A DNA stretch of 64,000 nt, from the NCBI GenBank assembly GCA_021731405.1, contig JAKFXN010000003.1, forward strand, positions 108,676 through 172,675, written 5' to 3'. Shown here in pieces: positions 4,539 through 62,252 of this stretch. The position numbers and the translations under genes were made by a program. The notes below the pieces were generated by a model. It was not told where the DNA came from. It made no database searches and saw nothing but the letters and a program-made list of their open reading frames with translations. Within the stretch, counting starts at the first letter, position 1. Every line of letters starts with the position of its first letter. The stretch is from Candidatus Parcubacteria bacterium. GTDB taxonomy: Bacteria; Patescibacteriota; Minisyncoccia; Phycocordibacterales; UBA918.

Positions 4539-5300
4539 ATGGACACTATTATACAAATGCTTACTGTGCTCGGCCTGCCTTCGCGTTCAAGTGCGGTCTA
4601 TGTTGATCTACTGGCGCACGGCCCCTCTGCTGCGCGTACGATTGCGCTGCGTCTCGGTATCCCACGTTCGTCACTCTACGACCACGTGAAGCCGCTCCTT
4701 GATCTCGCCCTTGTGTCTGAGCTCAAGACAGGTACCAAAGCAGTTTTTGTTGTGGAGGAAATTAGTAACCTCGATCGGTTAGTCGCTAAGCAAGAGCAGT
4801 CGCTCGCCCTGCTTCGCACCGAGTTCACTAAAGCCAAAGCTACTCTGGCTGAAGCGCAGACGTCTCATGCTGAGCCTCGGATAAAATTTGTCGAAGGCAA
4901 AGCGGGTATAGCCGCACTTCTCTTGGAGATGCTCTGGGATACCAAAAGTGAAATCAAAACGGTCTGGCCATACGAGGCGATGCTTAAAGTTTTGTCACCT
5001 GAAGATCTTGAACTTTTCAATCGTAAACGTATTCGCCAAAACATTGCACTCAAGACCATCTGGACTGGACCTCGGCCAGGAAAGCAGCATCTCTGGCGCG
5101 GCGGCGACTTTAAGGTAGAGCGCAAAAGTGCGCCAGCAAAATATCATGCTGATATGGCCTACAACATCTATGGAGACAGAGTGTCTTTCTTTAGTTCAGT
5201 TGGTGAACAGTATGGCTTTGTGGTCCATAGTCGAGACTTCGCAGCTCTCATGTCGGCACAGTTCGCGGCCTTGTGGGAAGTGTCTAAGGAGGGTAAGTAG
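4539..5300 (+). CDS. TrmB-family HTH transcriptional regulator (start chosen at MDTIIQML)
   Basis: N-terminal winged HTH: LTVLGLPSRSSAVYVDLLAHGPSAARTIALRLGIPRSSLYDHVKPLLDLALV. Confidence 0.5.
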   Translation: MDTIIQMLTVLGLPSRSSAVYVDLLAHGPSAARTIALRLGIPRSSLYDHVKPLLDLALVSELKTGTKAVFVVEEISNLDRLVAKQEQSLALLRTEFTKAKATLAEAQTSHAEPRIKFVEGKAGIAALLLEMLWDTKSEIKTVWPYEAMLKVLSPEDLELFNRKRIRQNIALKTIWTGPRPGKQHLWRGGDFKVERKSAPAKYHADMAYNIYGDRVSFFSSVGEQYGFVVHSRDFAALMSAQFAALWEVSKEGK

Positions 5301-5378
5301 AATCAAACATTCGCGCGAGTCTCGCCAAACTAAAAACTGTGTGGTAGATTCCAAGTAGATTTTTACAGGAGAAATCTC

Positions 5379-5741
5379 ATGTCAAACAGTGTTCTTGCTG
5401 ACTTGGTCCCCGCCACCAATCTTGATGTGTCACGCTTGCCGTGGCTACTTGAGTCGAGCCCTGAGAAAGTCATTGTCCGCAACTTGTGGTTCGTCACCGT
5501 ATCTTTGTTGTCTGACTTTGCCAAACCACCATTCGAGGTGGTTGAAGAAGAGGGCTACTTTGTGCTCCATGGTTTTGATGCCAAAAGCTCTTTGCCAGCC
5601 AGCCTGCGTGTTGTGGAGGACGATACGTTCCAGAACATCCTGCAGTATCGCAATGAGCGCTACCAAATGTGGGGCAGTAGCCCGCCCGGCAACATCCTCT
5701 TCTTGCCTGCCCTTCTTGGTCCAGATCTCAAGCTCATATAA
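5379..5741 (+). CDS. hypothetical protein, 120 aa
   Basis: AGGAG RBS 7 nt upstream. Hairpin terminator follows. No recognisable domain. Confidence 0.4.
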   Translation: MSNSVLADLVPATNLDVSRLPWLLESSPEKVIVRNLWFVTVSLLSDFAKPPFEVVEEEGYFVLHGFDAKSSLPASLRVVEDDTFQNILQYRNERYQMWGSSPPGNILFLPALLGPDLKLI

Positions 5742-7640: not shown

Positions 7641-8153
7641 CTATAATTTCAGAAATTCTTCTATGAATGCTTTTTCGCGCTCGAGTATAAAGTGACCTTC
7701 AAATTTACCCGGAGTATCGTTCTTCATTTTTTCAAGAACTTCTATTGGTTGCATCCATAAAGTCTCGTGACCCTCTTCGATTTCTCCAGCTTCTAGTTGT
7801 CGTTTTCCAATATCACCTATTGCTTTTGCTACAAAACCATAAGAAATCTGAATCAGCTTGTACTTGTTTCGGTATTCGATGGTAACTCCAAGGGGTCTTA
7901 CAATCTCACATTTACAACCGACCTCTTCAAGGACTTCTCGTTTTAGAGCATCTTCTATATTTTCTCCTTGATTAACACCTCCGCCAGGTAGTTTGTGATA
8001 ACTATAGGTTTTGAGATATTGGGTGGACATTTCGCCCTTCTCATTTAGAAGTATTGCGCGGGCAGATTTTCTTAGTTCATATGATTCGCCAAGTTGTTCG
8101 CCCTCATCAGTCAGCCCCATGCTCTTTTCGCTGATTTCTTTGAGTATTTTCAT
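7641..8153 (-). CDS. NUDIX hydrolase
   Basis: Nudix box GGGVNQGENIEDALKREVLEEVG. Confidence 0.75.
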   Translation of the reverse strand: MKILKEISEKSMGLTDEGEQLGESYELRKSARAILLNEKGEMSTQYLKTYSYHKLPGGGVNQGENIEDALKREVLEEVGCKCEIVRPLGVTIEYRNKYKLIQISYGFVAKAIGDIGKRQLEAGEIEEGHETLWMQPIEVLEKMKNDTPGKFEGHFILEREKAFIEEFLKL

Positions 8154-11231: not shown

Positions 11232-12482
11232 ATGTTAAAGTCAACAAATAAAAAACCTAGGGTTTTAGATTTATTTGCTGGAGCAGGAGGTCTCTCTGAG
11301 GGCTTTGTCAGAGCTGGCTGTAATATTGTAGGTCATATCGAAATGGATAAAAATGCTTGTGAGACTCTTATCACAAGAATGGTTTACCACGCACTCCTCA
11401 AAAAGGGAAAAATTGATGAATATAAAAAATATGTGCTAGGAGAAGTTACCAGAGAGGAGTTGATTGAAAAATATAAACTACAAAAAGAGCGGGACTCAGT
11501 AATATGTGCATCTATAGGAGTAGATAACTACAGAAATTTAATAGCTACAATCAAAGAGAAACTGGGGGGTAAAAAACTGGACTTAATCATCGGAGGTCCA
11601 CCTTGTCAGGCTTATTCACATATTGGTCGAGCACGTGATAAAAATAAAATGGCTTCTGACGAGCGTAATTTTTTGTATAAATTTTATGTTGAGTTTTTAA
11701 AAGAATTACTGCCAAAAATCTTTGTTTTTGAAAATGTCCCAGGGTTAAAAACTGCTGCAGGCGGCAAGCATCTTGCGGATATGAGGGCGCTAATGTTGGA
11801 GGCTGGATACGAGACGGAATTGAGCGTCCTTAATACTGTAGATTTTGGTGTCCCGCAAAATAGAAAGAGAGTCATCTTGATTGGTTGGAGCAAAGAATCA
11901 AAAATGAAGGAGTACCCAGATTTTGATAAACTTAAGCTGGTTCGTTCGTATGTTGTCTCGGATGTTTTTTCTAACTTACCTAAATTGAAGGCAGATGATG
12001 GATCTTTGCATGTAAGAGATTTTCAGCAAGGTAGTAGTGTCCCAAGCCAGTTGATGATTAGTGACTTTGATATTTTGATGTCGCACATGACTCGGCCGAA
12101 CAACGATCAAGATTTAGAGATATACAGACATGTGGCTCTGGCTAAAAGGAAAGGTGTTGAGCTTAAGTATAATGAGCTACCCAAGGAGCTTAAAACTCAT
12201 AAAAATGAGCACGGTTTTCTAGATAGGTTTAAAGTTGTCGATCCAGCTGCAAAAGGGTCACATACAATAGTCGCTCATATTGGAAAAGACGGTCACCATT
12301 ACATTCATCCTGATGTTAAGCAAAATAGGTCTATTTCAGTGAGAGAGGCTGCCCGCTTGCAAACATTCCCGGATAGTTATAAGTTTGAGGGAGCTCGAAC
12401 TGCTCAGTTTAAACAAATTGGGAACGCTGTTCCGCCTTTATTTTCAACAATGATTGCAAAAGAGCTAATCAAACATCTTTAA
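11232..12482 (+). CDS. dcm: DNA (cytosine-5)-methyltransferase
   Basis: Motif I DLFAGAGGLSEGF. Motif IV GGPPCQAYS. Motif VI ENVPGL. Motif X QIGNAVPP. Confidence 0.9.
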   Translation: MLKSTNKKPRVLDLFAGAGGLSEGFVRAGCNIVGHIEMDKNACETLITRMVYHALLKKGKIDEYKKYVLGEVTREELIEKYKLQKERDSVICASIGVDNYRNLIATIKEKLGGKKLDLIIGGPPCQAYSHIGRARDKNKMASDERNFLYKFYVEFLKELLPKIFVFENVPGLKTAAGGKHLADMRALMLEAGYETELSVLNTVDFGVPQNRKRVILIGWSKESKMKEYPDFDKLKLVRSYVVSDVFSNLPKLKADDGSLHVRDFQQGSSVPSQLMISDFDILMSHMTRPNNDQDLEIYRHVALAKRKGVELKYNELPKELKTHKNEHGFLDRFKVVDPAAKGSHTIVAHIGKDGHHYIHPDVKQNRSISVREAARLQTFPDSYKFEGARTAQFKQIGNAVPPLFSTMIAKELIKHL

Positions 12483-12487
12483 AATAT

Positions 12488-14662
12488 ATGAAGAAAGTAT
12501 TTAAGCCACGAGCCAGACTACTATTACAGTTAGGAAATCAGCTTATAAAAAATGAAAATATAGCTCTAGTTGAATTAATTAAAAACTCTCATGATGCGGA
12601 TGCAAAAGAGTGCAAAATTGAGTTAATCAACATTGATTCTAAAGAGAATGGAGAAATCATCATTAAAGATGACGGCGTTGGTATGTCTCTACAGGTGATT
12701 GAACAGATATGGTTAGAGCCAGGAGCGGACTTTAAAGACCTTGTACTCAAAGGCAAACAATTGCCACTGAACTTGATTTATGCAGCTAAGCGTACTCCAA
12801 TTGGCGAGAAAGGGATTGGTAGGTTTGGTGTACATAAATTAGGTGATGAAGTGGAGCTGGTTACTAAAGACGCAGATTCTGAGAAGGAAATAGTAGTAAA
12901 AATTAACTGGCTGGATTTTCATGATGTCATCTATTTAGAGGATGCAACTTTTGATGTCGCAGAGAGGAAGCCTGTGATTTTTACAGGCAAGCAGACTGGT
13001 ACTGTAATGACTATACGAAAACTACGTACCTCATGGGATAAAACTATGTTTAAGGAACTGATCAGAACTGTTCTGTCGCTCAATACACCTTTTGCAGAAA
13101 AGACTAAAGATAGTTTTTCAGCTACTCTGAATCTTAGTTTAAAGAATAAAGATCAACAGTTAGAGTGGCAAGAAACAATGCTGACAGTCGAACAGGTAAA
13201 AAATTTATCTTTATGGAAAGTAAGATGCACTATCGAAGGTAATAAAATAAAGAAATTTCACTATGAATTTTTACCATATGCTGGAATGGACAAGCTTTCT
13301 AAGAAAGTGGTTACTGAGAAAAATGCTATTTTCACCAAGTATTATAATCAACTAAGAGACAGCAATAATTTACCATTTGATTTGTCATCACATGAGATTG
13401 GTCCGATTGAAGTTGAGCTTTTTCTCTTTTATCTTGGCTCGAAGGTTCTAAAACTAAGCACATCAGATCCTAGGTTGCTTAATGATTTTATGAAAGAGAA
13501 CGGTGGGGTTAGGGTTTATAGGGGAGGAATGCGCGTTTATGACTACGGGGAACCAGAAGATGACTGGCTAAACTTAGATCAGAAGAGAATAAGTAATGTG
13601 GGAGGGAGCATAGGAAATAAGCTTATTCTAGGTTCCATTTCACTAGAAAGACGCAAAAGTCTTGGGCTAATTGAAAAAACAAACAGAGAGGGTTTTGTGG
13701 AGAACGATTCATATAAAGCATTCAAGCAGTCGCTTTTGCAAGTCATTGCCATTGTCAATCATTTGAGAAATATAGATAAGTTACAAATTAAAGAAATATA
13801 TGAAGGATCAGCACAGACTGAGCCAGTTTTGCATGATGTAGATTTATTGAAGGACATAACAACTGAGAAGATCGCAGATTTTTCTGAAGGATTAACTGAA
13901 GAAAAGAAAAATGAGGTCAATAAATTTAGAGATGAAATTATTGAAGGCTTAGAAGTCATCAAAGAACAATATATTAAAAGCCACGATATTCTTATTAAAA
14001 GTGCTGGTGCTGGTTTAAGTCTTGGGGTGGTAATTCATGAAATTGAAAAAAGAATTAAAGAACTCAGAAGAGTGATAGATGTTGTTGATTTTAATGTAAA
14101 GAAGGTAAAAGAAATAGTTTTATCAATTTCTAAATTAGTTGGTAATTATTCTGTGTTACTAAGTAATACCACTAAAGAAAAAGTACAACTTTCTAAAGTG
14201 GTTGAAGATTCAATATATAACTGCTCATTTAGGTTTGAGGCTCATAAAGTTTCTGTATCCCAGCTATATAAAAAGCATAAGTTAGTCAAAATAAATTGTG
14301 CCACAAATATTATTGTTGGAGCTCTTCTCAATATTTTTGATAACTCGCTCTATTGGTTAAATGCTTATGATATTAAAGATAAAAAAATATTGATTGACTT
14401 TAATGACTACAAAGATGAGATTGGAGTCTTGGTGGCAGATAACGGTAAGGGGTTTTTATTATCGGCAGAGGATGCAATTAAACCCTTTATTTCAATGAAA
14501 AATGGAGGTACAGGCTTAGGGTTACACATTGCCGATGAAATGATGAAGATCCATAAAGGGCGCCTTGTAATAAGGAATTTTAAAGAATTTAAATCTTTAC
14601 CTAAGGAGTTTGAGCAAGGTGCCATCGTAGAGTTAATCTTTAAGAAGAATGAAACTAAATGA
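12488..14662 (+). CDS. hybrid GHKL ATPase: N-terminal MORC/HATPase_c_3-like module plus C-terminal histidine-kinase-like core (H-box + HATPase_c)
   Basis: N-terminal: ELIKNSHDADA, DDGVGMS, GEKGIGRFG. C-terminal: GVVIHEIEKRIKEL (H-box-like), LLNIFDNSLYW (N-box), VADNGKGF (G1), GGTGLGLHIADEMM (G2). Confidence 0.6.
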   Translation: MKKVFKPRARLLLQLGNQLIKNENIALVELIKNSHDADAKECKIELINIDSKENGEIIIKDDGVGMSLQVIEQIWLEPGADFKDLVLKGKQLPLNLIYAAKRTPIGEKGIGRFGVHKLGDEVELVTKDADSEKEIVVKINWLDFHDVIYLEDATFDVAERKPVIFTGKQTGTVMTIRKLRTSWDKTMFKELIRTVLSLNTPFAEKTKDSFSATLNLSLKNKDQQLEWQETMLTVEQVKNLSLWKVRCTIEGNKIKKFHYEFLPYAGMDKLSKKVVTEKNAIFTKYYNQLRDSNNLPFDLSSHEIGPIEVELFLFYLGSKVLKLSTSDPRLLNDFMKENGGVRVYRGGMRVYDYGEPEDDWLNLDQKRISNVGGSIGNKLILGSISLERRKSLGLIEKTNREGFVENDSYKAFKQSLLQVIAIVNHLRNIDKLQIKEIYEGSAQTEPVLHDVDLLKDITTEKIADFSEGLTEEKKNEVNKFRDEIIEGLEVIKEQYIKSHDILIKSAGAGLSLGVVIHEIEKRIKELRRVIDVVDFNVKKVKEIVLSISKLVGNYSVLLSNTTKEKVQLSKVVEDSIYNCSFRFEAHKVSVSQLYKKHKLVKINCATNIIVGALLNIFDNSLYWLNAYDIKDKKILIDFNDYKDEIGVLVADNGKGFLLSAEDAIKPFISMKNGGTGLGLHIADEMMKIHKGRLVIRNFKEFKSLPKEFEQGAIVELIFKKNETK

Positions 14663-15881
14663 TTATAGCGATTTTACTAAAGTTGTAATCATTGATGATG
14701 ACTACAATGAAGGTAATGAAGTTCGGAAAGCACTACTCGGTGCGGGTATTTCATCGGCTTTTTTTCATATATCGTCTAGTCAACCTGAACCTAAAGGTCC
14801 TTATAAAAATGTACGCTTAGTATTCTTAGATTTAGACCTAGACCACCTAGGCGTGCAAGAGAACCCAACTCAAGGTGCCTCAATAACATTGGCTACCCTT
14901 TCGAGGGTCGTAGATAAGAGTAGTCATTATGTTTTAGTATTATGGTCTGCAAAAACCACGAGGCCAATAGCTCGTGAGTTTAAGCGTCAACTGAAGAGAA
15001 CAAAAACAGTGGCAAATCCTATAAAAATTATAAGTTTAGGAAAAAATACTTGTAAAAATACCTCAGGAAGTTATAACTTATCAAAAATTAAGAAAGGAAT
15101 TAATTCTGGTTTAGAAAGCCTTCCCGCCTTCTCAGTCTTTTCAGAAGGAGAGAGGATTTTCGGCAATGCAATCGCTAAAACAATGGTCTCAATTTCGAAG
15201 CGACGTAGTGATCAAACTTTGTCAAAAGTTATTAATTCTTTAGCTAAAGCCAGTGCGCCACGTCCACGTGAACTAGTTGCAAATAGTGCTCTACTCAATT
15301 TCAATGGACTCATTGAAGACTCTATAGCTAGAGAAGTCTTAGCTCATGATTTTGGAGATTTACATTCTAAATTAAATGAGGAAGAGCTAAATCCCCGTCA
15401 GTGTGCAGAATTAAATTATCATTTAATTTTTTCGCCCGATAAGGTTTCTGATAGTGGTCAAATTATTTTTTTAAGAAAAAACAAAAAATTTATTAAAGAC
15501 GTTTTTGGTGACGAAATGAATTGTGAAGCATATAAATCAATGAGATGTTTTGTGGTAGAAGTAACACCGATTTGTGGAAGCGCTCAATCTAACGGTCTTC
15601 GCTATGTCATTCAAGGGGTGATTCATCCTCAGTTCAGAAAAGTAAGAACTAGTAAGGATGAAATTCGTGCAACAAATGTGTCAGGCTATACGTTTAAAGA
15701 CAGCTTTATATATAGCGGAAAAATTTGTCGAATGTCTTTTAATTTAAGATCTTATAGTACTGACATAAAGGATGTGGATTCTGGCGTAGTTAGTGAAAAA
15801 CTTCGAGCACATATTGTGATGGACATTCAACATAAAATCGCCTCTTATATTTCTCGTCCTGGACACTCATTGCTTTACTAG
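14649..15881 (+). CDS. receiver (REC)-like domain protein with unknown 280-aa C-terminal domain
   Basis: KVVIIDDDYNEGNE...VRLVFLDLDLD...VLVLWSAKT resembles a CheY-like fold. The start overlaps the previous gene by 14 nt. Confidence 0.4.
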   Translation: MKLNDYSDFTKVVIIDDDYNEGNEVRKALLGAGISSAFFHISSSQPEPKGPYKNVRLVFLDLDLDHLGVQENPTQGASITLATLSRVVDKSSHYVLVLWSAKTTRPIAREFKRQLKRTKTVANPIKIISLGKNTCKNTSGSYNLSKIKKGINSGLESLPAFSVFSEGERIFGNAIAKTMVSISKRRSDQTLSKVINSLAKASAPRPRELVANSALLNFNGLIEDSIAREVLAHDFGDLHSKLNEEELNPRQCAELNYHLIFSPDKVSDSGQIIFLRKNKKFIKDVFGDEMNCEAYKSMRCFVVEVTPICGSAQSNGLRYVIQGVIHPQFRKVRTSKDEIRATNVSGYTFKDSFIYSGKICRMSFNLRSYSTDIKDVDSGVVSEKLRAHIVMDIQHKIASYISRPGHSLLY

Positions 15882-16006
15882 CCATACACCACCTAGCAAT
15901 ATAGACGACATAGAGTGTTTGCTAAAGTCTTTAGAATTAGTCGCGCTGAATTGAAATACGTTAACTAAGGTTAAGTATCACTTATAAGACAGTTTTGTTT
16001 GGAAGT

Positions 16007-16190
16007 GGCGGAATTGGTCACGAATCACTAAGTATATTTATTCACTTCGTTCCAAATCTACTAAGTGTTCTCGACCCCAGCTCGCTCGCCTCCGGCATCG
16101 CTGCGCTCCTCAATTCCCGACGAAAGCAAAGCAGTTTGCTTTCTCCGCTCCACCATATTAAAAAAATCCCCATGAGGGGAATTTTTAATA
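16007..16190 (-). repeat. tRNA/tmRNA-3'-flank element copy (d), core-less, downstream of ssrA
   Basis: Shares left/right arms with copies at 52331, 53937 and 61925. Proximal CGGGAATTGAG is the reverse complement of the tmRNA T-arm. Distal CAATTCCGCC is a direct copy of the tmRNA 3' segment. Confidence 0.6.
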
Positions 16191-16588
16191 TGGTGGAGAT
16201 GGCGGGAATTGAGCCCGCGTCCGAATCAGGTACCACATGGTGCTTCTACAGTGTGTAGTTACTCCTTTGATTTAAAGCTTATGTCTTAAGAAGAAACAAA
16301 ACAACATAAACTCGAGTTGTTACAAGCTTAAACATATGCGACAACGGCGCTTATGCCCAGAGCCTCGTGGCTATTCTACAACCGTGCCGTATGAGGCGTT
16401 TAACACGATCGCATCGATCCGGGTCTAGGCGAATGGTTACGCTAGAGCGGGAGCGAATCCAAACGCGTTAGCGTATGGACTTGGTATTGCTTTGTTTGCA
16501 AATACAGATGGAACCTCTTTACGAATTGATTTCCAGTTTTCGACACTGCACACAATGGGTAGGCTAACCGTCGATGCCTAGCATCCCC
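16191..16588 (-). ncRNA. ssrA: tmRNA (SsrA)
   Basis: 5' GGGGAUGCUAGGCAUCGACGG... and 3' ...GCGGGCUCAAUUCCCGCCAUCUCCACCA form a tRNA-like domain. Tag ORF GCA-AAC-AAA... encodes ANKAIPSPYANAFGFAPALA*. SmpB is adjacent. Confidence 0.85.
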
Positions 16589-22916: not shown

Positions 22917-22990
22917 TCAGGTAGTGCGCAAAGTGCGCGTGTTTCACAGCTCGGTCGGACTTTATGTTCAAGATTCAATATTTTGTCCAT

Positions 22991-23136
22991 CCACTTGGAC
23001 TCGAATCTTACAGATTCCTGTCCACTCATATGTCTCTTTTGTTCACTCCGTTCCAAAAGATACTATATGAGTCTTGCGAAATGGGTCCCATCCCATTTCT
23101 CACCAAGGACCACAGATTATATGAAATTCAAAACAA
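22991..23136 (-). repeat. tRNA-3'-flank element copy (a): duplicated tRNA-Ile 3' half interrupted by the ~95-nt core (23006–23103)
   Basis: In tRNA orientation: CTGTGGTCCTTGG-[core GTGAGAAATGGG...CTGTAAGA]-TTCGAGTCCAAGTGGATGG. The tRNA itself has ...CGGTCCTTGGTTCGAATCCAAGAGGACGG. Confidence 0.6.
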
Positions 23137-23138
23137 AG

Positions 23139-23212
23139 TCCGTCCTCTTGGATTCGAACCAAGGACCGCAGAGGTATAAGCTCTGTGCTCTAACCAACTG
23201 AGCTAAGGACGG
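23139..23212 (-). tRNA. tRNA-Ile, anticodon UAU (loop CUUAUAC)
   Basis: Manual fold. Acceptor CCGTCCT/AGGACGG, D GCTC-AGTTGGTTA-GAGC, anticodon stem CAGAG/CTCTG, T GGTTCGAATCC. No CCA encoded. Confidence 0.65.
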
Positions 23213-32865: not shown

Positions 32866-32882
32866 ATTGTTTTTTAACTTAG

Positions 32883-32969
32883 CGGAGGATGTGGGATTCG
32901 AACCCACGAGAAGTTTAACCCTCTGGCGGTTTAGTAAACCGCTGCCTTCAGCCACTCGGCCAATCCTCC
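32883..32969 (-). tRNA. class-II (long variable arm) tRNA, Ser-like (G73), anticodon loop UUACUAA (anticodon ACU by standard numbering)
   Basis: Manual fold. Acceptor GGAGGAT/ATCCTCC, D GCC-GAGTGGCTGAA-GGC, anticodon stem GCGGT/ACCGC, 18-nt variable arm, T GTGGG-TTCGAAT-CCCAC. Confidence 0.55.
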
Positions 32970-35034: not shown

Positions 35035-35120
35035 ATAAAAGTTTTGTTATATATATATTTAAACTAGGGTAAATGGGGGAAGGTTGCAGGGAGAGGAATT
35101 TCTCGGCTTGTATAACAAGG

Positions 35121-35301
35121 AGACGAGAGGATTCGTCCTGACGGTCACTAAGCTATTTTATTTCGTTCCACTCATAAAATAGCAAGTGCCGCGGGACACG
35201 ACTCGCCGACCCAAAGGGTCCCCCGGCTCCGTCGTTCGAATCCTCTCTTCTCGCGCTCGTGCAAACAAAAACAACCCTGAACGGGTTGTCTTTGGCACTC
35301 G
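35121..35301 (-). repeat. tRNA-3'-flank element copy (f) downstream of tRNA-Ser(GCU)
   Basis: Proximal 27-nt inverted copy of the tRNA-Ser 3' end (GAGAAGAGAGGATTCGAACGACGG). Conserved GAGTGGAACGAA...CTTAGTGAC arm. Distal direct copy GACGAATCCTCTCGTCTCC. Confidence 0.6.
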
Positions 35302-35386
35302 CGGAGAAGAGAGGATTCGAACCTCCGGGGGCGTGAACCCCACTTCCTTAGCAAGGAAGCACGATAGACCACTCTGACACTTCTCC
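35302..35386 (-). tRNA. tRNA-Ser, anticodon GCU
   Basis: Acceptor GGAGAAG/CTTCTCC, anticodon stem-loop CTTCC-TTGCTAA-GGAAG, long variable arm, T GGAGG-TTCGAAT-CCTCT, G73. The D-arm is non-canonical in my manual fold. Confidence 0.65.
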
Positions 35387-51572: not shown

Positions 51573-52208
51573 ATGGATCCAATTGTTTCAGCTGAATATT
51601 CAAGTATTGCCACGACAGTTAGTCTTACTACTGACGGAGCTGGTATTTTTGGTAATATTTTTGAAACAGCTTTTGATAGCGCTAATGCATCTTCTTTCTT
51701 TACACTTGATAGCATTCTCTCACTCTTAAATACTATTTGGCTTGTCTACGTTGTTTTTGCGTACATACTTTGTATTTTAATGTTAGTTCTGTACGTGTAC
51801 GCATCTGCAGGCAAAAAGCAGCTCCAAGATTTAGATGATGAAGCACGTGAACAACGTGAACGACTCTATGAAGAGCACTTTAAAGGAATTCCTAAAAATA
51901 GTCGGATTGAAGACATGTTGACCCACAGCGCATCTGACAGTCCAAATGATTGGAAATTAGCAATTATTGAAGCTGACATAATCTTGGACGAAATCCTGAA
52001 AGAAGCAGGGTACTTAGGAGCAACTCTTGGTGATCGACTAAAAAGTATTTCTCCCACTCAGCTGCAATCTCTTGATGATGCTTGGCAGGCCCATAAAGTG
52101 CGTAACCAAATCGCCCATGCTGGCTCAGATTTTGTTTTGACTCGGAAGTTGGCTGAAGACACTATTAAGCAATATCGGCGCGTGTTTTACGAACTTGGGG
52201 TGCGCTAG
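51573..52208 (+). CDS. hypothetical membrane protein (one TM)
   Basis: No recognised domain. Confidence 0.4.
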   Translation: MDPIVSAEYSSIATTVSLTTDGAGIFGNIFETAFDSANASSFFTLDSILSLLNTIWLVYVVFAYILCILMLVLYVYASAGKKQLQDLDDEAREQRERLYEEHFKGIPKNSRIEDMLTHSASDSPNDWKLAIIEADIILDEILKEAGYLGATLGDRLKSISPTQLQSLDDAWQAHKVRNQIAHAGSDFVLTRKLAEDTIKQYRRVFYELGVR

Positions 52209-52261
52209 TAAGTTGCAATTATGTCAAAAATGAGGTACTTTCTTGTGTACCGAAGTATATA

Positions 52262-52330
52262 GCGGGTTAGAGGAGAGGTACCTCGGGAGGCTCATAACCT
52301 CCAGACTCCGGTTCGATTCCGGAACCCGCA
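52262..52330 (+). tRNA. tRNA-Met (CAU), elongator-type
   Basis: Anticodon stem-loop GGAGG-CTCATAA-CCTCC. T-arm TCCGG-TTCGATT-CCGGA. Acceptor GCGGGTT/AACCCGC. Exact ends ±2 nt. Confidence 0.7.
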
Positions 52331-52620
52331 ACAAAATAACAAAACCAGCACCCTAGGTGCTGGTTTTGTTATTTTGTCAGGGTTCACAGAGCCAACTGCT
52401 TGGCTCTGGTCGGGATCGAACAACCGCAGCGATGCCGTAGGCGAGCGAGGTGGGTGAGAAATGGGACGGGACCCATTTCGCAAGGCTCATATAGTATCTT
52501 TTGAACGAAGTGAGAAAAGAGACATATGAGTGGACAGAATCTGTAAGATTCGAGAACACTTAGTAGATTTGGAGTGGAACGAACAAATATACTTAGTGAT
52601 TCGTGACTCATTCCGGAACC
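52331..52620 (+). repeat. tRNA-3'-flank element copy (b) with nested core (52454–52548)
   Basis: Terminator hairpin, then GTCGGGATCGAACAACCGCAGCGATGCCGTAGGCGAGCGAGGTGG. Then core GTGAGAAATGGGACGGGACCCATTTCGCAAGG...CTGTAAGA. Then TTCGAGAACACTTAGTAGATTTGGAGTGGAACGAACAAATATACTTAGTGATTCGTGAC. Then direct copy TCATTCCGGAACC of the tRNA-Met 3' segment. Confidence 0.7.
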
Positions 52621-52874
52621 ACTTGTCCCTCAATTTTCCATTGCCCGCCTGTTCGCAGAGAAGTACAATTAACCTATGAGTAAAAATCATTCTGGACGAC
52701 CATTAAACGTGAATCATCATATGGGCAAAACGGCACCGCTGGGTAAGCACATGCAACCGCGTCGGGTCGCTTCACGGATGGAAGGTGCCCCTCGAAACGA
52801 ACAACGGAAAGCGGGAAAAGGTAAGTAGGTTATAAGTTGAGCTTGTTCTCAATCTCTTGTATATTGCTTGTATT

Positions 52875-53576
52875 ATGCAATGCGTTATTTTAGCTGCAGG
52901 AAAAGGAACCCGCTTGCGCCCACTCACTGAACACACCCCAAAGCCTCTTGTGAAGGTGGCTGGCAAGCCCTTATTGGAACATATTGTCGAAGCACTTCCG
53001 AGTTCTGTAGACGAAATTATTTTAGTGACTGGTTATTTAGAACAACAGATTAAAGATTACTGTGGTTCAGAATTTCACGGCAAAAAAGTTACGTACGTAA
53101 CACAAGTTGAGCAGAAGGGTACCGCGCACGCGTTGTGGCTCTGTAAGGACCTATTAAAGGGAAGATTCCTTTTTATGTTTGCTGACGACCTTCATGGCCC
53201 AAACGACATCGCTCGCGCTACTTCCTACGTACGCTCTATGCTTACACTGACTACCAACACACCAGAGAAGTTTGGTATTGTGGTCCGTCATCCTGATGGG
53301 ACACTGGCTCAGATTATAGAGAAGCCAGAACATCCACCATCAAACCTAGCCTCAACTGGAGTGATGGTGCTTGATGATAATATCTTTAAGTACGACCCAT
53401 ACGCCAAAGAAACAAAGGGAGAGTACTACCTTACCGACGTGATTCAGGAATATGCTAAAGAGTATCCAATTGCGGTAGTGGAACAGTCTCTTTGGATTCC
53501 TATTGGGTACCCAGAAGACATAGCAAAAGCCGAAGAAATCTTGGCTGCGAACATTGATTCTCGGCCTAAAATGTAG
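52875..53576 (+). CDS. sugar-phosphate nucleotidyltransferase (NTP_transferase; G1P thymidylyl/uridylyl-transferase-like)
   Basis: VILAAGKGTRLRPLTEHTPKPLVKVAGKPLLEHIVEAL. Confidence 0.8.
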   Translation: MQCVILAAGKGTRLRPLTEHTPKPLVKVAGKPLLEHIVEALPSSVDEIILVTGYLEQQIKDYCGSEFHGKKVTYVTQVEQKGTAHALWLCKDLLKGRFLFMFADDLHGPNDIARATSYVRSMLTLTTNTPEKFGIVVRHPDGTLAQIIEKPEHPPSNLASTGVMVLDDNIFKYDPYAKETKGEYYLTDVIQEYAKEYPIAVVEQSLWIPIGYPEDIAKAEEILAANIDSRPKM

Positions 53577-53614
53577 TATCTTTTTGCAACTGTCATCTAG
53601 GCAGTAATACGTCT

Positions 53615-53688
53615 GTCGACGTAGCTCAGTTGGTTAGAGCGTAGCACTCATAAAGCTAAGGTCGGAGGATCGTTCCCTCCCGTCGACA
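53615..53688 (+). tRNA. tRNA with CAU anticodon (Met or Ile2/lysidine), unusual T-loop AUCGUUC
   Basis: Acceptor GTCGACG/CGTCGAC, D GCTC-AGTTGGTTA-GAGC, anticodon loop CTCATAA, T GGAGG-ATCGTTC-CCTCC. Confidence 0.65.
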
Positions 53689-53794
53689 CAAAGAAAATGC
53701 CTTGGCTTTTTCTGGCCTGAGATATTGCCCTTTTTTACGAAAGTGTATATACTCTTGCCACCAGTCTCAGAAATGGCATTGGAACCGCATAACT

Positions 53795-53868
53795 GCGGTG
53801 GTAGCTCAACTGGTTAGAGCACCCGCCTGTCACGCGGGAGGTTGCGGGTTCGAGTCCCGTCTACCGCG
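53795..53868 (+). tRNA. tRNA-Asp (GUC)
   Basis: Acceptor GCGGTGG/CTACCGC, anticodon stem-loop CCCGC-CTGTCAC-GCGGG, T GCGGG-TTCGAGT-CCCGT, G73. Confidence 0.85.
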
Positions 53869-53936
53869 CACAATAAAGAATCGGCGAAAGCCGATTTTTT
53901 TGTGCGCGGTAGAAGAAAAGTGCTCGGGCACTTTTC

Positions 53937-54148
53937 GTCGGGACTCGAAAACCGCAGCGATGCCGTAGGCGAGCGAGGTGGGTGAGAAATGGGACGGGAC
54001 CCATTTCGCAAGGCTCATATAGTATCTTTTGAACGAAGTGAGAAAAGAGACATATGAGTGGACAGAATCTGTAAGATTCGAGAACACTTAGTAGATTTGG
54101 AGTGAAACGAACAAATATACTTAGTGATTCGTGACCGAGTCCCGTCTA
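53937..54148 (+). repeat. tRNA-3'-flank element copy (c) with nested core (53982–54076)
   Basis: Inverted acceptor copy TGTGCGCGGTAGA, a hairpin, then inverted T-arm CGTCGGGACTCGAA. Conserved arms plus core. Distal direct copy CGAGTCCCGTCTA of tRNA-Asp. Confidence 0.7.
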
Positions 54149-54179
54149 AAAAATCTAAATTTCTGTTATAGTACAAGCC

Positions 54180-55676
54180 ATGAAATCACCACTCGTTATT
54201 TATTGGTCTCGACGCGATTTTCGCTTGGCTGATAATCCAGCTCTTTTAGCTGCGCTTCTGCATAGCAAAAAAGAAAATATACCCTTCCTTCCTATTTTTA
54301 TCTTGGAGGATTATATGACAGAAGGAAATCCAATTCATCAGTTTGGTCTGCCTTCACGCTGGTTTTTGTCTCGAGCCTTACCTGACTTTGCTTCTCAGTT
54401 CAAAGACTTTGTTATTTATAAAGGCAAGGCGGTCGTAACTCTCAAAGCAATAGCTGAACACGTTGATGTGACTGTCTATGTAAATGATGATGTGTATGTA
54501 GATTTTTATACGCAGGTTGAGAAACTGCAAGCAGCAGGTATTACTGTCCACGTGTCTGAGGATGCTCTTTCTGTACCAAAAGACACTCGTTCTCAAGAAG
54601 GAAAATTATATAGCGTCTTTACTCCCTTTAAGAAAAATGTCTGGGTAAAATTTGTATCCACCAAAGTGCAAAAGAAAGCTGAAGTGACAGATGTGTTGAC
54701 TCTCACCAGAGCAGAGCGTCAGCTTTTGCCAAAAGAAGTTGTCGCGACGACAGAAGCACTTGAAGTAGAGTTTAGGAAAAGTCGCTTACTACAAGCAGGG
54801 AAGCATATAATCGACCTAGACACACTTACTGCTGCTCCAGAGTTCCAAGATTGGTATATCAGTGAAGCAGAAGCGCTAGAGCGTTTTAAAGGGTACTTAC
54901 AAAGCGGTGATCTTGATGGCTATAGAAAAAACCGTGATTCACTTGAGCTCGATGCTGTTGGGGCAGGAAAGACTTCCAAAATGAGTCTGGCCTTGGCGTG
55001 GGGTTTAGTATCTTCACGAACGCTCGTCTCACTTATTCAAAGACATTTTGAAGAATCATTTGATAATCCATTTTCTTCTAGGGTAAGTGAAGGAGCCCTT
55101 ACCTACATCTCTGAACTTATCTGGCGGGAGTTTTATCGCTACCAATTGTTTCACCATCCTGAGCTTATGGACACTGAGTTTCAGGAACGATTCCGAGGCA
55201 CTATTGCCTGGGTGGAGGACAAAACAGCCGAGGCTCGATTCATTGCTTGGATAAAAGGCGAAACAGGCTACCCGGTAGTTGATGCAGCGATGAAACAAAT
55301 CGCTGAAACAGGATGGATGCATAACCGTTCGCGGATGGTTGTGGCTAGTATATTAACTAAAAACTTAGGTGTTGATTGGCGCTGGGGGCAAGAATATTTT
55401 AGAGCGGCCCTCATTGATTTGGATGAAGCTTCTAATAATGGTGGCTGGCAGTGGGGTGCTTCAGTCGGAGCTGATCCAAAACCAATTCGTATTTTTAACC
55501 CTGAGCTCCAAGCCAAAAATTACGATGCTTCTGGTGCGTATCAAAAACGATGGTTAGAGTCAGACAAAAACTTCTCACTCTTAGCCCCAAGTGTGCCGAT
55601 TGTGGAGCATAAGACTGCTCGAGAAGAGGCGCTAAAACGGTACGGTCTTTCTAAAGAAGAACCAAGAGATTATTAG
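54180..55676 (+). CDS. phrB: deoxyribodipyrimidine photolyase/cryptochrome family protein
   Basis: N-terminal photolyase domain. FAD-binding WREFY, GWMHNRSRMVVASIL, DLDEASNNGGWQW. Confidence 0.85.
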   Translation: MKSPLVIYWSRRDFRLADNPALLAALLHSKKENIPFLPIFILEDYMTEGNPIHQFGLPSRWFLSRALPDFASQFKDFVIYKGKAVVTLKAIAEHVDVTVYVNDDVYVDFYTQVEKLQAAGITVHVSEDALSVPKDTRSQEGKLYSVFTPFKKNVWVKFVSTKVQKKAEVTDVLTLTRAERQLLPKEVVATTEALEVEFRKSRLLQAGKHIIDLDTLTAAPEFQDWYISEAEALERFKGYLQSGDLDGYRKNRDSLELDAVGAGKTSKMSLALAWGLVSSRTLVSLIQRHFEESFDNPFSSRVSEGALTYISELIWREFYRYQLFHHPELMDTEFQERFRGTIAWVEDKTAEARFIAWIKGETGYPVVDAAMKQIAETGWMHNRSRMVVASILTKNLGVDWRWGQEYFRAALIDLDEASNNGGWQWGASVGADPKPIRIFNPELQAKNYDASGAYQKRWLESDKNFSLLAPSVPIVEHKTAREEALKRYGLSKEEPRDY

Positions 55677-61853: not shown

Positions 61854-61924
61854 TGCCCGATCGTCTAATGGTAGGACACATGGTTTTGGTCCATGGTATC
61901 GAGGTTCGAGTCCTTGTCGGGCAG
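61854..61924 (+). tRNA. tRNA-Gln (UUG)
   Basis: Acceptor TGCCCGA/TCGGGCA, 3-bp D-stem, anticodon stem-loop CATGG-TTTTGGT-CCATG, T CGAGG-TTCGAGT-CCTTG, G73. Confidence 0.8.
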
Positions 61925-62103
61925 CGAGTAAAGAAAACACCCGTATGGGTGTTTTCTTATATACGAGCTGCCCGAAGCAAGTGACTAAATGTCACTTGCG
62001 GCAAGGACTCGAAAAGCTTTTGAGTATATTTTGGAGTGGAGCGAACAAAATATTCAAAAGGTATACTGGTCATGTAATGACCGAGATTCCTTGTCGGGCA
62101 GCG
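61925..62103 (+). repeat. tRNA-3'-flank element copy (e), reduced form
   Basis: Terminator. Inverted acceptor copy GCTGCCCGA plus a hairpin. Inverted T-arm GGCAAGGACTCGAA. ATTTTGGAGTGGAGCGAACAAAATAT. Distal direct copy CGAGATTCCTTGTCGGGCAGCG of the tRNA-Gln 3' end. Confidence 0.65.
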
Positions 62104-62252
62104 ATGAACGGAAATATTGAAACACCTCTTTTGCGTCTCTCGTTCACTTGTCGGTAAGCAAACACAAATCAACCTGTTAAGGGTATTTTGTTTTCACAAA
62201 AAAACCCGCGATCGAAATCGCGAGTAGGGGTGGTGTATGTAGAAGCTGGTGG

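What the first reader, a model, noticed from the sequence alone, without database searches (positions are those of the whole stretch)
52262..52620. Unannotated element family inserted at the 3' ends of tRNA/tmRNA genes (six copies in this window)
Six loci carry a related non-coding element immediately downstream of a tRNA-type gene, in the same orientation: tmRNA (16007–16190), tRNA-Ile (22991–23136), tRNA-Ser(GCU) (35121–35301), tRNA-Met (52331–52620), tRNA-Asp (53937–54148) and tRNA-Gln (61925–62103).

The layout in the tRNA-Ser, tRNA-Asp and tRNA-Gln copies is: tRNA, a hairpin terminator, an inverted copy of the host tRNA's own 3' half, then conserved arms, and finally a direct partial duplication of the host tRNA's T-loop-to-acceptor segment. 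The tmRNA copy has the same order but carries only the inverted T-arm and no hairpin; the tRNA-Met copy differs again (see the caveat below). The inverted 3'-half copy has an acceptor part and a T-arm part that differ by host. The acceptor part is TGTGCGCGGTAGA for Asp and GCTGCCCGA for Gln. The T-arm part is CGGGACTCGAA for Asp, CAAGGACTCGAA for Gln and CGGGAATTGAG for tmRNA; for Ser it is a 27-nt GAGAAGAGAGGATTCGAACGACGG. The conserved arms are ...AACCGCAGCGATGCCGTAGGCGAGCGAGGTGG...ATTTGGAGTGGAACGAACAAATATACTTAGTGATTCGTGAC. The distal direct copies are CGAGTCCCGTCTA (Asp), TCATTCCGGAACC (Met), CGAGATTCCTTGTCGGGCAGCG (Gln), GACGAATCCTCTCGTCTCC (Ser) and CAATTCCGCC (tmRNA).

A direct repeat that starts in the T-loop is the footprint expected of site-specific recombinase integration at GGTTCGANTCC. 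No integrase gene lies inside any copy (each is 150–290 bp). I therefore read them as miniature, non-autonomous (CIME/MITE-like) integrative elements or their scars. The proximal inverted tRNA-half copy is unusual and is not explained by classic tRNA-island models. One caveat: in the tRNA-Met copy the proximal sequence (CGGGATCGAACAACCGC) is only a weak inverted match to the host T-arm, so the inverted-copy feature is not uniform.
Basis: seen in the sequence. Interest (0 to 1): 0.85.

Follow-up and report, generated by a model that had tools for sequence, protein, structure and literature searches.

The report
Structured cassettes stacked behind tRNA genes
Six of the nine tRNA-type genes in this Saccharibacteria window are followed by small non-coding cassettes, each combining a hairpin made from an inverted copy of the gene's own 3' end with a conserved folded core; the family is found across Patescibacteria (CPR), differs between near-identical strains, and matched nothing in Rfam or in my literature searches.

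Summary
Each locus reads:
- tRNA or tmRNA 3' end (X);
- terminator hairpin;
- inverted copy of X, usually split by a conserved hairpin (H0);
- a structured core;
- a direct copy of X (X') that starts in the T-loop.

There are two core families. B is about 95-110 nt and A about 55-95 nt; A sits nested inside B at tRNA-Met and tRNA-Asp.

**Structure.** Both cores show strong covariation. For B, 98% of cells pair and 20 of 21 pairs carry compensatory changes. G.T outnumbers A.C 65 to 4, so the tRNA-sense strand is the one that folds.

**Association.** A model of core B found 83 copies in 539 kb of Patescibacteria DNA. All 83 lie behind a tRNA-type 3' end. It found none in 576 kb of viral DNA. Rfam, the phage collection and the plasmid collection gave nothing.

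**Turnover.** Related strains differ by whole cassettes, by swapped cores and by tandem copy number. Empty sites exist.

**Best reading (0.42).** These are non-autonomous cassette arrays that recombine at the repeated tRNA 3' end. The hairpin and core would be cis signals for machinery encoded elsewhere. No recombinase was found, and I could not decide whether the folded form is RNA or single-stranded DNA.

The parts
52261..52332 (+). tRNA-Met (CAU), host gene of the focal cassette. Its last ~21 nt (52312-52332) are the attachment sequence X.
   Evidence: ARAGORN; Rfam tRNA 55.5 bits
52333..52376 (+). Terminator-like hairpin, a 21-bp-arm palindrome with A and T tracts. It forms the tip of the large hairpin.
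   Evidence: Sequence; coordinates
52377..52418 (+). Degenerate inverted acceptor copy (52377-52385), H0 hairpin (52386-52409) and inverted T-arm copy (52410-52418). The T-arm copy is closer to the Asp version than to tRNA-Met.
   Evidence: boundary of identity with the Asp copy
52419..52607 (+). Composite core: B 5' part (52419-52455), nested A module (52456-52549), B 3' part (52550-52607).
   Evidence: 99.5% identical to 53950-54135; model R1 63.8 bits
52608..52620 (+). X': direct partial copy of the tRNA-Met T-loop and acceptor segment (TCATTCCGGAACC).
53795..53869 (+). tRNA-Asp (GUC), host gene.
53872..53947 (+). Terminator (53872-53901), exact inverted acceptor copy including 3 trailer nt (53902-53913), H0 (53914-53938) and exact inverted T-arm copy (53939-53947).
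   Evidence: 53846-53950 folds at -48.3 kcal/mol, z -12.7
53948..54135 (+). Composite core: B 5' part (53948-53983), nested A module (53984-54077), B 3' part (54078-54135).
54136..54148 (+). X': direct copy CGAGTCCCGTCTA, starting at C56 of the T-loop.
16000..16189 (-). Cassette behind the tmRNA gene (16191-16588): terminator 16157-16189, inverted acceptor copy 16148-16156, H0 16120-16147, inverted T-arm copy 16109-16119, B core without A 16017-16108, degenerate X' 16000-16016.
   Evidence: R1 95.3 bits; hairpin -41.5 kcal/mol, z -10.7
35119..35293 (-). Cassette behind tRNA-Ser(GCU) (35301-35386): terminator 35263-35293, contiguous inverted copy with no H0 35237-35255, B core (subtype 2) 35136-35236, X' 35119-35135.
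   Evidence: R1 82.5 bits; hairpin -38 kcal/mol, z -8.9
61930..62104 (+). Cassette behind tRNA-Gln (61854-61925): terminator 61930-61958, inverted acceptor copy 61967-61975, H0 61976-62001, inverted T-arm copy 62002-62011, A-type core 62012-62081, X' 62082-62104.
   Evidence: hairpin -47.7 kcal/mol, z -13.5
22985..23113 (-). Cassette remnant behind tRNA-Ile(UAU) (23138-23212): left flank 23102-23113, A module 23005-23101, X' 22985-23004. It has no terminator hairpin and no H0.

Best explanation
These are non-autonomous DNA cassettes that pile up in arrays behind tRNA and tmRNA genes and use the gene's own 3' end (X) as their recombination repeat.

**Cassette make-up.** One cassette is [X - terminator hairpin - inverted copy of X (often split by the H0 hairpin about 10-12 nt from its end) - structured core]. 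The next X copy closes it.

**Shown**
- The architecture, in the window and in dozens of other loci.
- The folded cores, with covariation on the tRNA-sense strand.
- The exclusive link to tRNA-type 3' ends.
- Gain or loss of whole cassettes between strains.
- Stacking of cassettes.
- Core swapping and gene conversion between loci.

**Suggested by a few loci only.** Cassettes nearest the tRNA tend to have the best-preserved X copies, as if new ones enter next to the tRNA.

**Inferred**
- A cassette leaves by recombination between two X copies, as a small circle, and enters by the reverse reaction, or by homologous recombination after DNA uptake.
- In single-stranded form, X and its inverted copy fold into a hairpin that presents the attachment sequence as a duplex. 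This is what the CTX phage attachment site and integron attC sites do.
- The conserved H0 and core are the structure that an enzyme encoded elsewhere recognises.

The enzyme is unknown, and so is the way a core lineage becomes fitted to a new tRNA.
For: **Architecture**
- Seen in all six window loci.
- Parsed automatically in 35 further loci.

**The hairpin X-terminator-inverted X**
- Folds at -38 to -48 kcal/mol, z -9 to -13.5, with H0 as a side branch.

**Cassette polymorphism**
- L121 equals L112 plus one complete 182-nt tRNA-proximal cassette, which has its own terminator, its own H0 and a B core. L112 has a further distal cassette.
- L136/L137 equal L134 plus one unit flanked by a 35-nt direct repeat.
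- L143 and L144, 99.5% identical over 5.5 kb, have different hairpin tips and different cores around an identical inverted copy and H0.
- One versus three tandem units in L104/L107 versus L106.
- Empty site at L031 tRNA-Asp.
- Hairpin-core-hairpin arrangements in L076, L080, L110 and L101.

**Cores are constrained and spread across lineages**
- 83 B cores in 539 kb, all behind tRNA-type 3' ends.
- Window core segments are 91-97% identical to copies in MAGs labelled Kaiserbacteria, Nomurabacteria and Paceibacteria, where they sit behind different tRNAs.
- Covariation.
- G.T 65 versus A.C 4.

**Other**
- Short-read contigs break at the repeat.
- No sigma-70-like promoter lies inside the elements. 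Each core lies behind a terminator.
Against: - No integrase, transposase, HUH enzyme or reverse transcriptase was found among 40 window ORFs. The cassettes themselves are non-coding and hold no conserved ORF. I did not screen the genes next to related arrays, so the machinery is hypothetical.
- No circular or single-stranded intermediate has been observed.
- A cassette fitted to one tRNA cannot enter another tRNA at X without breaking it, so retargeting needs an extra step that I cannot demonstrate.
- Every polymorphism seen could also arise by ordinary homologous recombination between strains.
- A conserved fold of about 100 nt, with invariant unpaired nucleotides, is more than known hairpin recombination sites require and looks like a functional RNA.
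- The Asp/Met identity covers only the core and the inverted T-arm copy, not the whole cassette.
Confidence: 0.42

Rival explanations
1. The cores are genes for a family of structured non-coding RNAs, made by read-through from the strong tRNA promoter. The inverted and direct copies of the tRNA 3' end form a closing helix that imitates the acceptor and T-stem stack, with H0 standing in for the D and anticodon arms. tRNA-processing enzymes would then cut the RNA out or mark it. Alternatively, the inverted copy acts as a two-part antisense guide to the tRNA 3' half.
For: - Strong covariation and a G.T versus A.C asymmetry on the tRNA-sense strand.
- Invariant unpaired nucleotides.
- A conserved apical motif of tandem G.A, two covarying pairs and a GNA triloop.
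- Same orientation as the tRNA in every case.
- H0 lies a near-constant 9-12 nt upstream of the core, flanked by host-specific segments, like a guide scaffold.
- Conservation across deep lineages.
Against: - Every core lies behind a strong terminator-like hairpin, and no promoter-like site lies inside the element.
- The direct copy X' often decays without compensating change in the inverted copy, for example at window Asp, tmRNA and Met and in L110. The tRNA-like closing helix is therefore not maintained.
- Turnover between near-identical strains and patchy presence at orthologous tRNAs do not fit a housekeeping RNA.
- GNA triloops closed by C-G are a hallmark of stable DNA mini-hairpins (PMC13037366), not of RNA.
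- No Rfam family matches.
Confidence: 0.2
2. The cassettes are selfish repeats with no dedicated enzyme. They spread and are reshuffled by host homologous recombination, gene conversion and replication template-switching. These processes would use the tRNA 3' end copies and the near-universal T-loop sequence (GGTTCGANTCC and its complement) on either side of each core as homology. Very stable hairpins would stall forks and promote such events, as proposed for REP/BIME-like repeats.
For: - Both core junctions fall in T-loop-derived sequence shared by all tRNAs.
- The Asp-to-Met conversion tract has arbitrary ends.
- Tandem unit expansions in L054, L106 and L146.
- Duplications after the core start at X and end at variable points.
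- One junction skips the terminator between short TTAG repeats.
- No recombinase was found.
- The window encodes type IV pilus genes, which I know are used for DNA uptake in other bacteria.
Against: - Passive repeats should not keep a covarying fold of about 100 nt at 91-97% identity across Patescibacteria classes.
- This model does not explain H0 sitting at a fixed place inside the inverted copy.
- It does not explain how the first inverted copy arises. Simple snap-back copying is excluded for the duplicated blocks, because they are direct copies with identical asymmetric loops.
Confidence: 0.2
3. The inverted copy is a read-through safeguard. If RNA polymerase passes the terminator, the inverted copy pairs with the tRNA 3' half and makes a 40-60-bp double-stranded RNA. 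RNase III would cut it, insulating the downstream gene from the strong tRNA promoter.
For: - The inverted copy is usually an exact complement of the functional 3' end, trailer nucleotides included, while X' decays.
- The pairing extends the terminator stem without a break.
- Promoter-like sites for downstream genes start right after the elements.
Against: - It gives no role to the conserved cores, to H0 or to X'.
- It does not explain stacking, nesting or strain-level turnover.
- Many tRNAs in the same genomes manage without it.
Confidence: 0.07
4. The elements are ordinary conserved tRNA trailers, and the tRNA matches are chance.
For: None beyond their position next to tRNA genes.
Against: - Presence/absence polymorphism at orthologous tRNAs.
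- Enrichment over shuffled controls.
- 83 of 83 cores lie behind tRNA-type 3' ends, against 0 hits in 576 kb of viral DNA.
Confidence: 0.01

Closest known systems
Integron gene cassettes and their attC sites
   Same: - Arrays of small units next to a fixed site, with single-cassette gain and loss.
- Each unit carries an imperfect hairpin recombination site whose structure, not sequence, is conserved.
- The folded strand is specific.
   Different: - The cargo is a folded non-coding core, not a gene.
- The hairpin arms are copies of the neighbouring tRNA's 3' end and therefore differ by locus.
- The fixed site is a tRNA gene rather than attI.
- No IntI-type integrase was seen, and the GTTRRRY core site is not met.
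CTX-phage-type elements that integrate as folded single-stranded DNA (IMEX, using XerCD at dif)
   Same: - An inverted pair of attachment-site copies about 100 nt apart lies at one junction.
- It can fold so that a single strand mimics the duplex target.
- The element depends on a host recombinase.
   Different: - The target is a tRNA or tmRNA 3' end, not dif.
- The whole element is 150-300 nt with no genes.
- Single-stranded circles are hypothetical here.
tRNA-targeting genomic islands and their integrase-less remnants (CIMEs)
   Same: - A direct repeat of the tRNA 3' end, from the T-loop or from the extreme 3' end, flanks the insert.
- tmRNA is also a target.
- The functional 3' end is restored.
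- Tandem accretion occurs.
   Different: - No integrase is present.
- The insert is 150-300 nt.
- The same core family serves at least 15 tRNA types.
- It has an obligatory inverted copy of the attachment sequence and a covarying core.
REP / BIME / REPIN repeats (mobilised by RAYT transposases)
   Same: - Extragenic and located after genes.
- Alternating-orientation repeats are separated by two kinds of linker.
- They are hairpin-forming and overlap terminators.
- They occur in many copies in small intergenic spaces.
   Different: - The alternating repeat is locus-specific tRNA sequence, not a genome-wide consensus.
- The linkers (the cores) are the conserved part.
- The tie to tRNA genes is strict.
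- RAYT was not tested.
E. coli tyrT locus (178-bp repeats each ending in the last 19 nt of tRNA-Tyr; rtT RNA). Recalled from my own knowledge.
   Same: Direct copies of a tRNA 3' end are repeated downstream of the tRNA gene, with a small RNA processed from the region.
   Different: A single locus in one lineage, with no inverted copy, no shared core family and no cassette turnover.
Programmable guide scaffolds: IS110 bridge RNAs and TIGR-Tas RNAs (PMC12045711)
   Same: - Conserved hairpins are interleaved with short target-specific segments.
- TIGR systems are common in Patescibacteria.
- Together, the element's inverted copy and X' match both strands of the target.
   Different: - No adjacent Nop-domain or IS110 gene was found.
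- No box C/D pattern was recognised.
- The two target-matching segments cover the same stretch and are complementary to each other.
- Units are 150-300 nt, not 36 nt.

Membership tests
tRNA-integrating genomic island / CIME | The insert is flanked by a direct repeat of the tRNA 3' end, and the functional tRNA is kept. | tested here: met
   X and X' in all six window loci and in 35 parsed loci.
tRNA-integrating genomic island / CIME | A tyrosine or serine integrase lies in the element, or a cognate one is identifiable in the genome. | tested here: not met
   The cassettes hold no conserved ORF. Pfam found none in 40 window ORFs. The rest of the genome was not available.
tRNA-integrating genomic island / CIME | Each element lineage is specific for one tRNA gene. 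| tested here: not met
   B cores lie behind at least 15 tRNA types plus tmRNA. Near-identical cores lie at Asp and Met.
MITE | Terminal inverted repeats are conserved between copies, with a short fixed-length target-site duplication. | tested here: not met
   The inverted repeats are copies of the local tRNA and differ at every locus. The duplications range from 13 to about 95 nt.
IS200/IS605-derived palindrome-associated elements | Subterminal hairpins, no flanking repeats, and insertion 3' of a fixed tetra- or pentanucleotide. | tested here: not met
   The flanks are long inverted and direct copies of host sequence. The junction is at C56 in many cases but in the trailer in others. The TnpA gene was not tested.
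Integron attC | An imperfect hairpin with R/L boxes (RYYYAAC...GTTRRRY) and extrahelical bases, plus an IntI integrase. | tested here: not met
   A hairpin is present, but its arms are tRNA sequence. I saw no consensus core site. No integrase was found in the window.
Folded single-stranded attachment site (CTX-type) | Inverted attachment-site copies fold into a duplex mimic of the target. | tested here: met
   X pairs with its inverted copy over 20-25 bp. The whole hairpin scores z -9 to -13.5.
Folded single-stranded attachment site (CTX-type) | A single-stranded circular intermediate recombined by a host recombinase. | not testable with these tools
   This needs detection of circles or junctions in cells and an enzyme assay.
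REP / BIME / REPIN | A genome-wide consensus palindrome in alternating orientation, with a RAYT gene. | tested here: inconclusive
   Alternating orientation of X copies is seen, but X is locus-specific. RAYT was not searched genome-wide.
Any Rfam family (tRNA-like, YrlA, T-box, ribozymes, HEARO and others) | The score reaches the family's gathering threshold. | tested here: not met
   Only tRNA and tmRNA pass. In the permissive scan of 52200-54300 the best other hits are far below threshold, for example YrlA at 17.6 against 69 bits, and that hit overlaps the tRNA.
TIGR-Tas / IS110 bridge RNA | Tandem non-overlapping guides flanked by box C/D motifs, next to a Nop-domain or IS110 gene. | tested here: not met
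   The architecture differs from the description in PMC12045711. No such gene appears among 40 window ORFs.
Structured nucleic-acid motif (generic) | Covariation supports a conserved secondary structure on one strand. | tested here: met
   B core: 98.1% of cells paired against 70% in shuffles, 20 of 21 pairs with double changes, slid controls 32-50%, G.T 65 versus A.C 4. A core: 17 of 19 pairs compensatory. Caveat: alignment A2 is fitted to the model.

The most novel reading that the evidence does not exclude
The cassettes belong to an unrecognised recombination system spread across Patescibacteria. In this reading, tiny gene-less modules are inserted at and removed from tRNA and tmRNA genes by an enzyme encoded elsewhere. 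The enzyme would read a conserved scaffold (H0 plus core A or B) whose interleaved arms of about 10-25 nt are matched to the target tRNA 3' end. That amounts to a structure- or guide-directed hybrid of an integron and a bridge-RNA system, acting either through folded single-stranded DNA or through the cassette's own transcript.
Probability: 0.2. Interest if true: 0.9.

Novelty: new variant of a known kind. Interest (0 to 1): 0.8.

Why it matters
Patescibacteria have some of the smallest and most streamlined bacterial genomes. Even so, about 40% of the tRNA loci sampled here carry one or more of these cassettes.

- **If the cassettes are mobile:** they are a new way of exploiting tRNA genes. 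The modules have no genes, copy the target's own end into a hairpin, and imply a recombination activity not yet identified in this phylum. A scaffold with exchangeable target-matching arms would also interest tool builders.
- **If the cores are RNAs:** they are two new, widespread structured RNA families tied to tRNA expression.

Two practical consequences hold on either reading. The repeats break short-read assemblies at tRNA genes. They also vary between strains that are more than 99% identical, which makes them useful strain markers.

Tried and rejected
- **Known RNA family.** Rfam at gathering thresholds over the whole window and a permissive scan of 52200-54300 found only tRNA and tmRNA.
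- **Phage or plasmid origin.**
  - Three pattern scans of viral contigs gave only chance-level hits. One set lies inside a phage ORF.
  - The B-core model found nothing in the 68 loci (576 kb) from the second and third scans.
  - BLAST of the tmRNA core against the phage and plasmid collections found nothing.
- **Primer-binding site for a mature tRNA (retroelement-like).** Rejected. The inverted copy matches genomic trailer nucleotides (Asp ...GCGCAC), not an added CCA.
- **Snap-back (fold-back) copying as the source of the duplicated blocks after the core.** Rejected. The blocks are direct copies with identical asymmetric loops.
- **Simple insertion into a T-loop with a short duplication (MITE-like).** Rejected. 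The left flank is the reverse complement of the T-arm 3' half, not its 5' half.
- **Group I tRNA introns of Patescibacteria (PMC13011429).** These sit in the anticodon loop and are unrelated. Intron-containing tRNAs merely explain some cores that have no ARAGORN tRNA upstream.
- **TIGR-Tas arrays.** The architecture is different.
- **Search for an autonomous copy.** The only long-range repeat of a tRNA 3' end is in L042, 2.3 kb away. Its ORFs gave no hint of a recombinase on reading, and I did not scan them against Pfam.
- **Strain comparison through the photolyase gene.** The only contigs found break at the repeat.
- **Literature.** Six searches found no description of these elements.
Full report
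**1. What is in the window**

ARAGORN and Rfam find nine tRNA-type genes. Six are followed on the same strand by a related non-coding element: tmRNA, tRNA-Ile(UAU), tRNA-Ser(GCU), tRNA-Met at 52261, tRNA-Asp and tRNA-Gln. The other three are not: the other tRNA-Ser, tRNA-Met at 53615 (which lies 105 nt upstream of tRNA-Asp) and tRNA-Thr.

BLAST within the window shows the following:
- Asp 53950-54135 and Met 52422-52607 are 99.5% identical over 186 nt.
- An inner module recurs behind tRNA-Ile at 93%.
- The tmRNA copy carries the outer sequence without the inner module, at 86-92%.

Pfam and synteny identify the window as Saccharibacteria. It has type IV pilus genes, SmpB beside tmRNA, RecG and LigA. 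It is collinear, at about 70% nucleotide identity, with contigs labelled Saccharibacteria.

**2. Anatomy**

Read in the direction of the tRNA, a full unit has five parts.
1. The gene's 3' end, X.
2. A terminator-like hairpin with an A tract before it and a T tract after it.
3. An exact or near-exact reverse complement of X. It is usually split at the acceptor/T-stem boundary by a hairpin, H0, whose base is conserved (AGCAAG...CTTGCG) and whose loop region is often GCAAACTGCTTTGC.
4. A conserved core.
5. A direct copy of X (X') that begins in the T-loop, most often at C56.

The inverted copy includes trailer nucleotides of the gene. At Asp it complements ...GCGCAC, not ...GCGCCA, so it was copied from DNA or from a precursor, not from mature tRNA.

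X, the terminator and the inverted copy together fold into a three-way hairpin of -38 to -48 kcal/mol, with z scores of -9 to -13.5 against shuffles. The terminator is at the tip and H0 is a side branch.

- The tmRNA copy has all of these parts.
- The weak inverted copy at tRNA-Met is closer to the Asp version. The near-identical Asp/Met tract covers only this inverted T-arm copy and the core, which points to gene conversion between loci 1.5 kb apart.

**3. The cores are folded**

A pattern taken from the outer core found 64 loci in one-genome-per-species contigs. About 30 are Patescibacteria: Saccharibacteria, Paceibacteria, Kaiser-, Nomura- and Yonathbacteria.

*Core B.* An alignment of 25 B cores gives these helices:
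- P2, which closes a variable hairpin.
- P3 (GGTCGCGAA / TTYGTGACC), which encloses P4.
- P4, a long hairpin with a symmetric CUUAG/CUUAG internal motif. Its apex has tandem G.A, two covarying pairs and a GNA triloop (GAGUGAAACGAA, or the variant GAACGAAGUGA).

A covariance model built from this alignment found 83 cores in 539 kb. On that alignment:
- 98.1% of cells pair, against 70% in column shuffles and 32-50% when partners are slid by 1-3 columns.
- 20 of 21 pairs show changes on both sides.
- G.T pairs outnumber A.C 65 to 4, so the tRNA-sense strand is the folded one.

This alignment is fitted to the model, which inflates pairing somewhat. The independent MAFFT/RNAalifold result agrees, with 15 of 21 pairs compensatory.

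*Core A.* The inner module is a second family. It has a long two-part hairpin and then a 5-bp hairpin with a UGUAA loop whose 3' strand abuts C56 of X'. Seventeen of 19 pairs are compensatory in 22 sequences.

A occurs alone (Gln and Ile in the window, and many other loci) or nested in P3 of B after GGT (Asp, Met, L021, L054).

No Rfam family matches.

**4. The association with tRNA genes held for every core found**

Of the 83 B cores, 70 have an ARAGORN tRNA or tmRNA gene ending within 700 nt upstream on the same strand. The median distance is 81 nt, and 14 tRNA types plus tmRNA are involved.

The other 13 lie behind one of the following:
- intron-containing tRNAs;
- a tmRNA that ARAGORN missed;
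- tRNAs cut by a contig end;
- recognisable tRNA 3'-end remnants.

In 197 non-redundant tRNA loci, 77 carry an inverted and/or direct copy of their own 3' end within 400 nt.

The same model finds nothing in 576 kb of viral contigs. BLAST finds nothing in the phage or plasmid collections.

**5. The units behave as cassettes**

Eighty syntenic loci from metagenomes give comparisons between strains.

- **L121 vs L112.** The tRNA-Asp genes are identical. L121 equals L112 plus one complete 182-nt unit next to the tRNA, with its own terminator, its own H0 and a B core. L112 has a further distal unit.
- **L134 vs L136/L137.** These are 96.5% identical. They share 164 nt through tRNA-Asp, terminator, H0 and inverted copy. 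L136/L137 then have an extra B core, X', and a second identical 35-nt H0-plus-inverted-copy block before the shared older core.
- **L143 vs L144.** These are 99.5% identical over 5.5 kb. They have different hairpin tips and different cores around an identical inverted copy and H0.
- **L104/L107 vs L106.** One versus three tandem units.
- **L031.** Its tRNA-Asp is an empty site: tRNA, terminator, promoter, gene.
- **L076, L080, L110, L101.** After the core, X' is followed by an exact direct copy of the terminator, or of the whole hairpin. Arrays therefore read tRNA 5' part-(hairpin-core)n-hairpin remnant.

Units nearer the tRNA tend to have better-preserved X copies.

Within a genome H0 differs between loci, while cores are shared. 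Across genomes the H0 consensus recurs behind many different tRNAs.

**6. How it most likely works**

*Shown:* the architecture, the folded cores, the strand, the strict link to tRNA-type 3' ends, cassette gain and loss, stacking, and conversion between loci.

*Inferred:* a cassette [X-terminator-inverted X with H0-core] is excised by recombination between two X copies and inserted by the reverse reaction, or transferred by homologous recombination after DNA uptake.

The inverted copy then has a reason to exist. In a single strand it lets X be presented as a duplex hairpin, as in the CTX phage attachment site and integron attC. H0 and the core would be what a trans-acting enzyme recognises.

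Points that favour action as DNA:
- Each core sits behind a terminator and has no promoter-like site of its own.
- X' decays without compensation.
- The apical motif contains the GNA triloop known for unusually stable DNA mini-hairpins (PMC13037366).

I give this model 0.42, for these reasons:
- No recombinase was found in 40 window ORFs.
- No intermediate has been observed.
- Retargeting a core lineage to a new tRNA is unexplained.
- A conserved fold of about 100 nt looks more like a functional RNA than like a recombination site.

**7. Rivals**

- **(a) A family of structured RNAs made by read-through, with a tRNA-like closing helix or a two-part antisense arm: 0.20.** It is supported by the covariation and by the guide-like interleaving of conserved and target-specific segments. 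It is weakened by the terminators, the decay of X' and the turnover between strains.
- **(b) Enzyme-free selfish repeats that spread through T-loop microhomology, gene conversion and template switching: 0.20.** It explains the junctions and the variable duplications, but not the conserved fold or H0.
- **(c) A read-through safeguard that creates double-stranded RNA for RNase III: 0.07.** It gives no role to the cores.
- **(d) Ordinary trailers or chance: 0.01.** This is refuted.

**8. Comparison with known systems, and verdict**

The elements share single features with several known systems:
- tRNA-integrating islands and their remnants (direct repeat of the tRNA 3' end);
- integron cassettes (arrays with hairpin sites);
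- CTX-type folded attachment sites (inverted site copies);
- REP/BIME (alternating repeats with two kinds of linker);
- guide scaffolds (conserved hairpins interleaved with target-specific arms).

They fail defining features of each, as set out in the membership table. I found no description of them in six literature searches.

I class the finding as a new variant of known kinds (integrative cassettes and structured repeats). There is a real chance, about 0.2, that it is a distinct structure- or guide-directed recombination system. Interest is 0.8.

Noticed in passing
window 32882-32969 (-) and 23138-23212 (-): ARAGORN assigns unusual anticodons. One tRNA-Ser has ACU (A at position 34), in addition to the normal tRNA-Ser(GCU) 2.3 kb away. 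One tRNA-Ile has UAU. Both score well as tRNAs in Rfam.
   Followed up: no
window 3900-4427, 8563-10572 and 11232-15881, next to the tmRNA cassette: A possible defence or mobile region: a Mu Gam-like protein, a Schlafen-type helicase fused to an S24 peptidase, and a C5 cytosine methylase followed by a 724-aa HATPase_c protein and a 410-aa ORF with no Pfam match.
   Followed up: partly
L002-L064, contigs of Clostridiales MAG CABSKZ01 (for example L064 4691-4717): A repeat found at many contig ends joins an extended -10 promoter (TGGTATAAT) to a hairpin with the same apical motif and flanks as P4 of the B core (ACTTAGTGAATCC-GAGTGAAGCGAA-GGATGAGCTTAGTGAG). It lies upstream of different genes. 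The hairpin module may therefore be used outside Patescibacteria.
   Followed up: partly
L088 1847-2000; L136 3780-3870; L041 and L022 intergenic regions: Small hairpins with loops of the form GAGCGNAGCGA (containing the GCGAAGC-type mini-hairpin) occur nested inside core loops and free in intergenic DNA, as if they were an even smaller repeat family.
   Followed up: no
L072, L080, L084, L089 and others, compared with window 52261-52332: The tRNA-Met upstream of the nucleotidyltransferase gene points away from that gene in many related genomes but towards it in the window. The tRNA and its cassette have therefore been inverted between lineages. Orphan tRNA-Met 3'-end fragments followed by cores (L150, L006 at 329, L079) may be by-products.
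   Followed up: no
L042 1254-3900: A 2.3-kb segment is flanked by direct repeats of the tRNA-Glu 3' end and trailer. It holds three ORFs (194, 255 and 121 aa) with no obvious recombinase, and a B-type cassette follows it.
   Followed up: partly
L087 ~1790-2070, L088 ~2020-2300, L082 ~5100-5400, L044 ~7700-7990: The tRNA-Met, tRNA-Asp and one other tRNA upstream of these cassettes appear to carry group I introns and are missed by ARAGORN. This agrees with the report of anticodon-loop introns in Patescibacteria (PMC13011429).
   Followed up: partly
L021 and L033 (contigs of a MAG labelled Acidimicrobiales, JBLIMJ01): These contigs carry typical B and A cassettes behind tRNA-Phe and tRNA-Trp. They may be Patescibacteria contigs binned into an actinobacterial MAG, possibly an epibiont binned with its host.
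   Followed up: no
L070, L071 (Logan contigs, SRR10388053 and SRR10388054): Contigs encoding a photolyase identical to the window's end 71 nt upstream of the gene, at the edge of the Asp cassette. The repeats therefore fragment short-read assemblies.
   Followed up: yes
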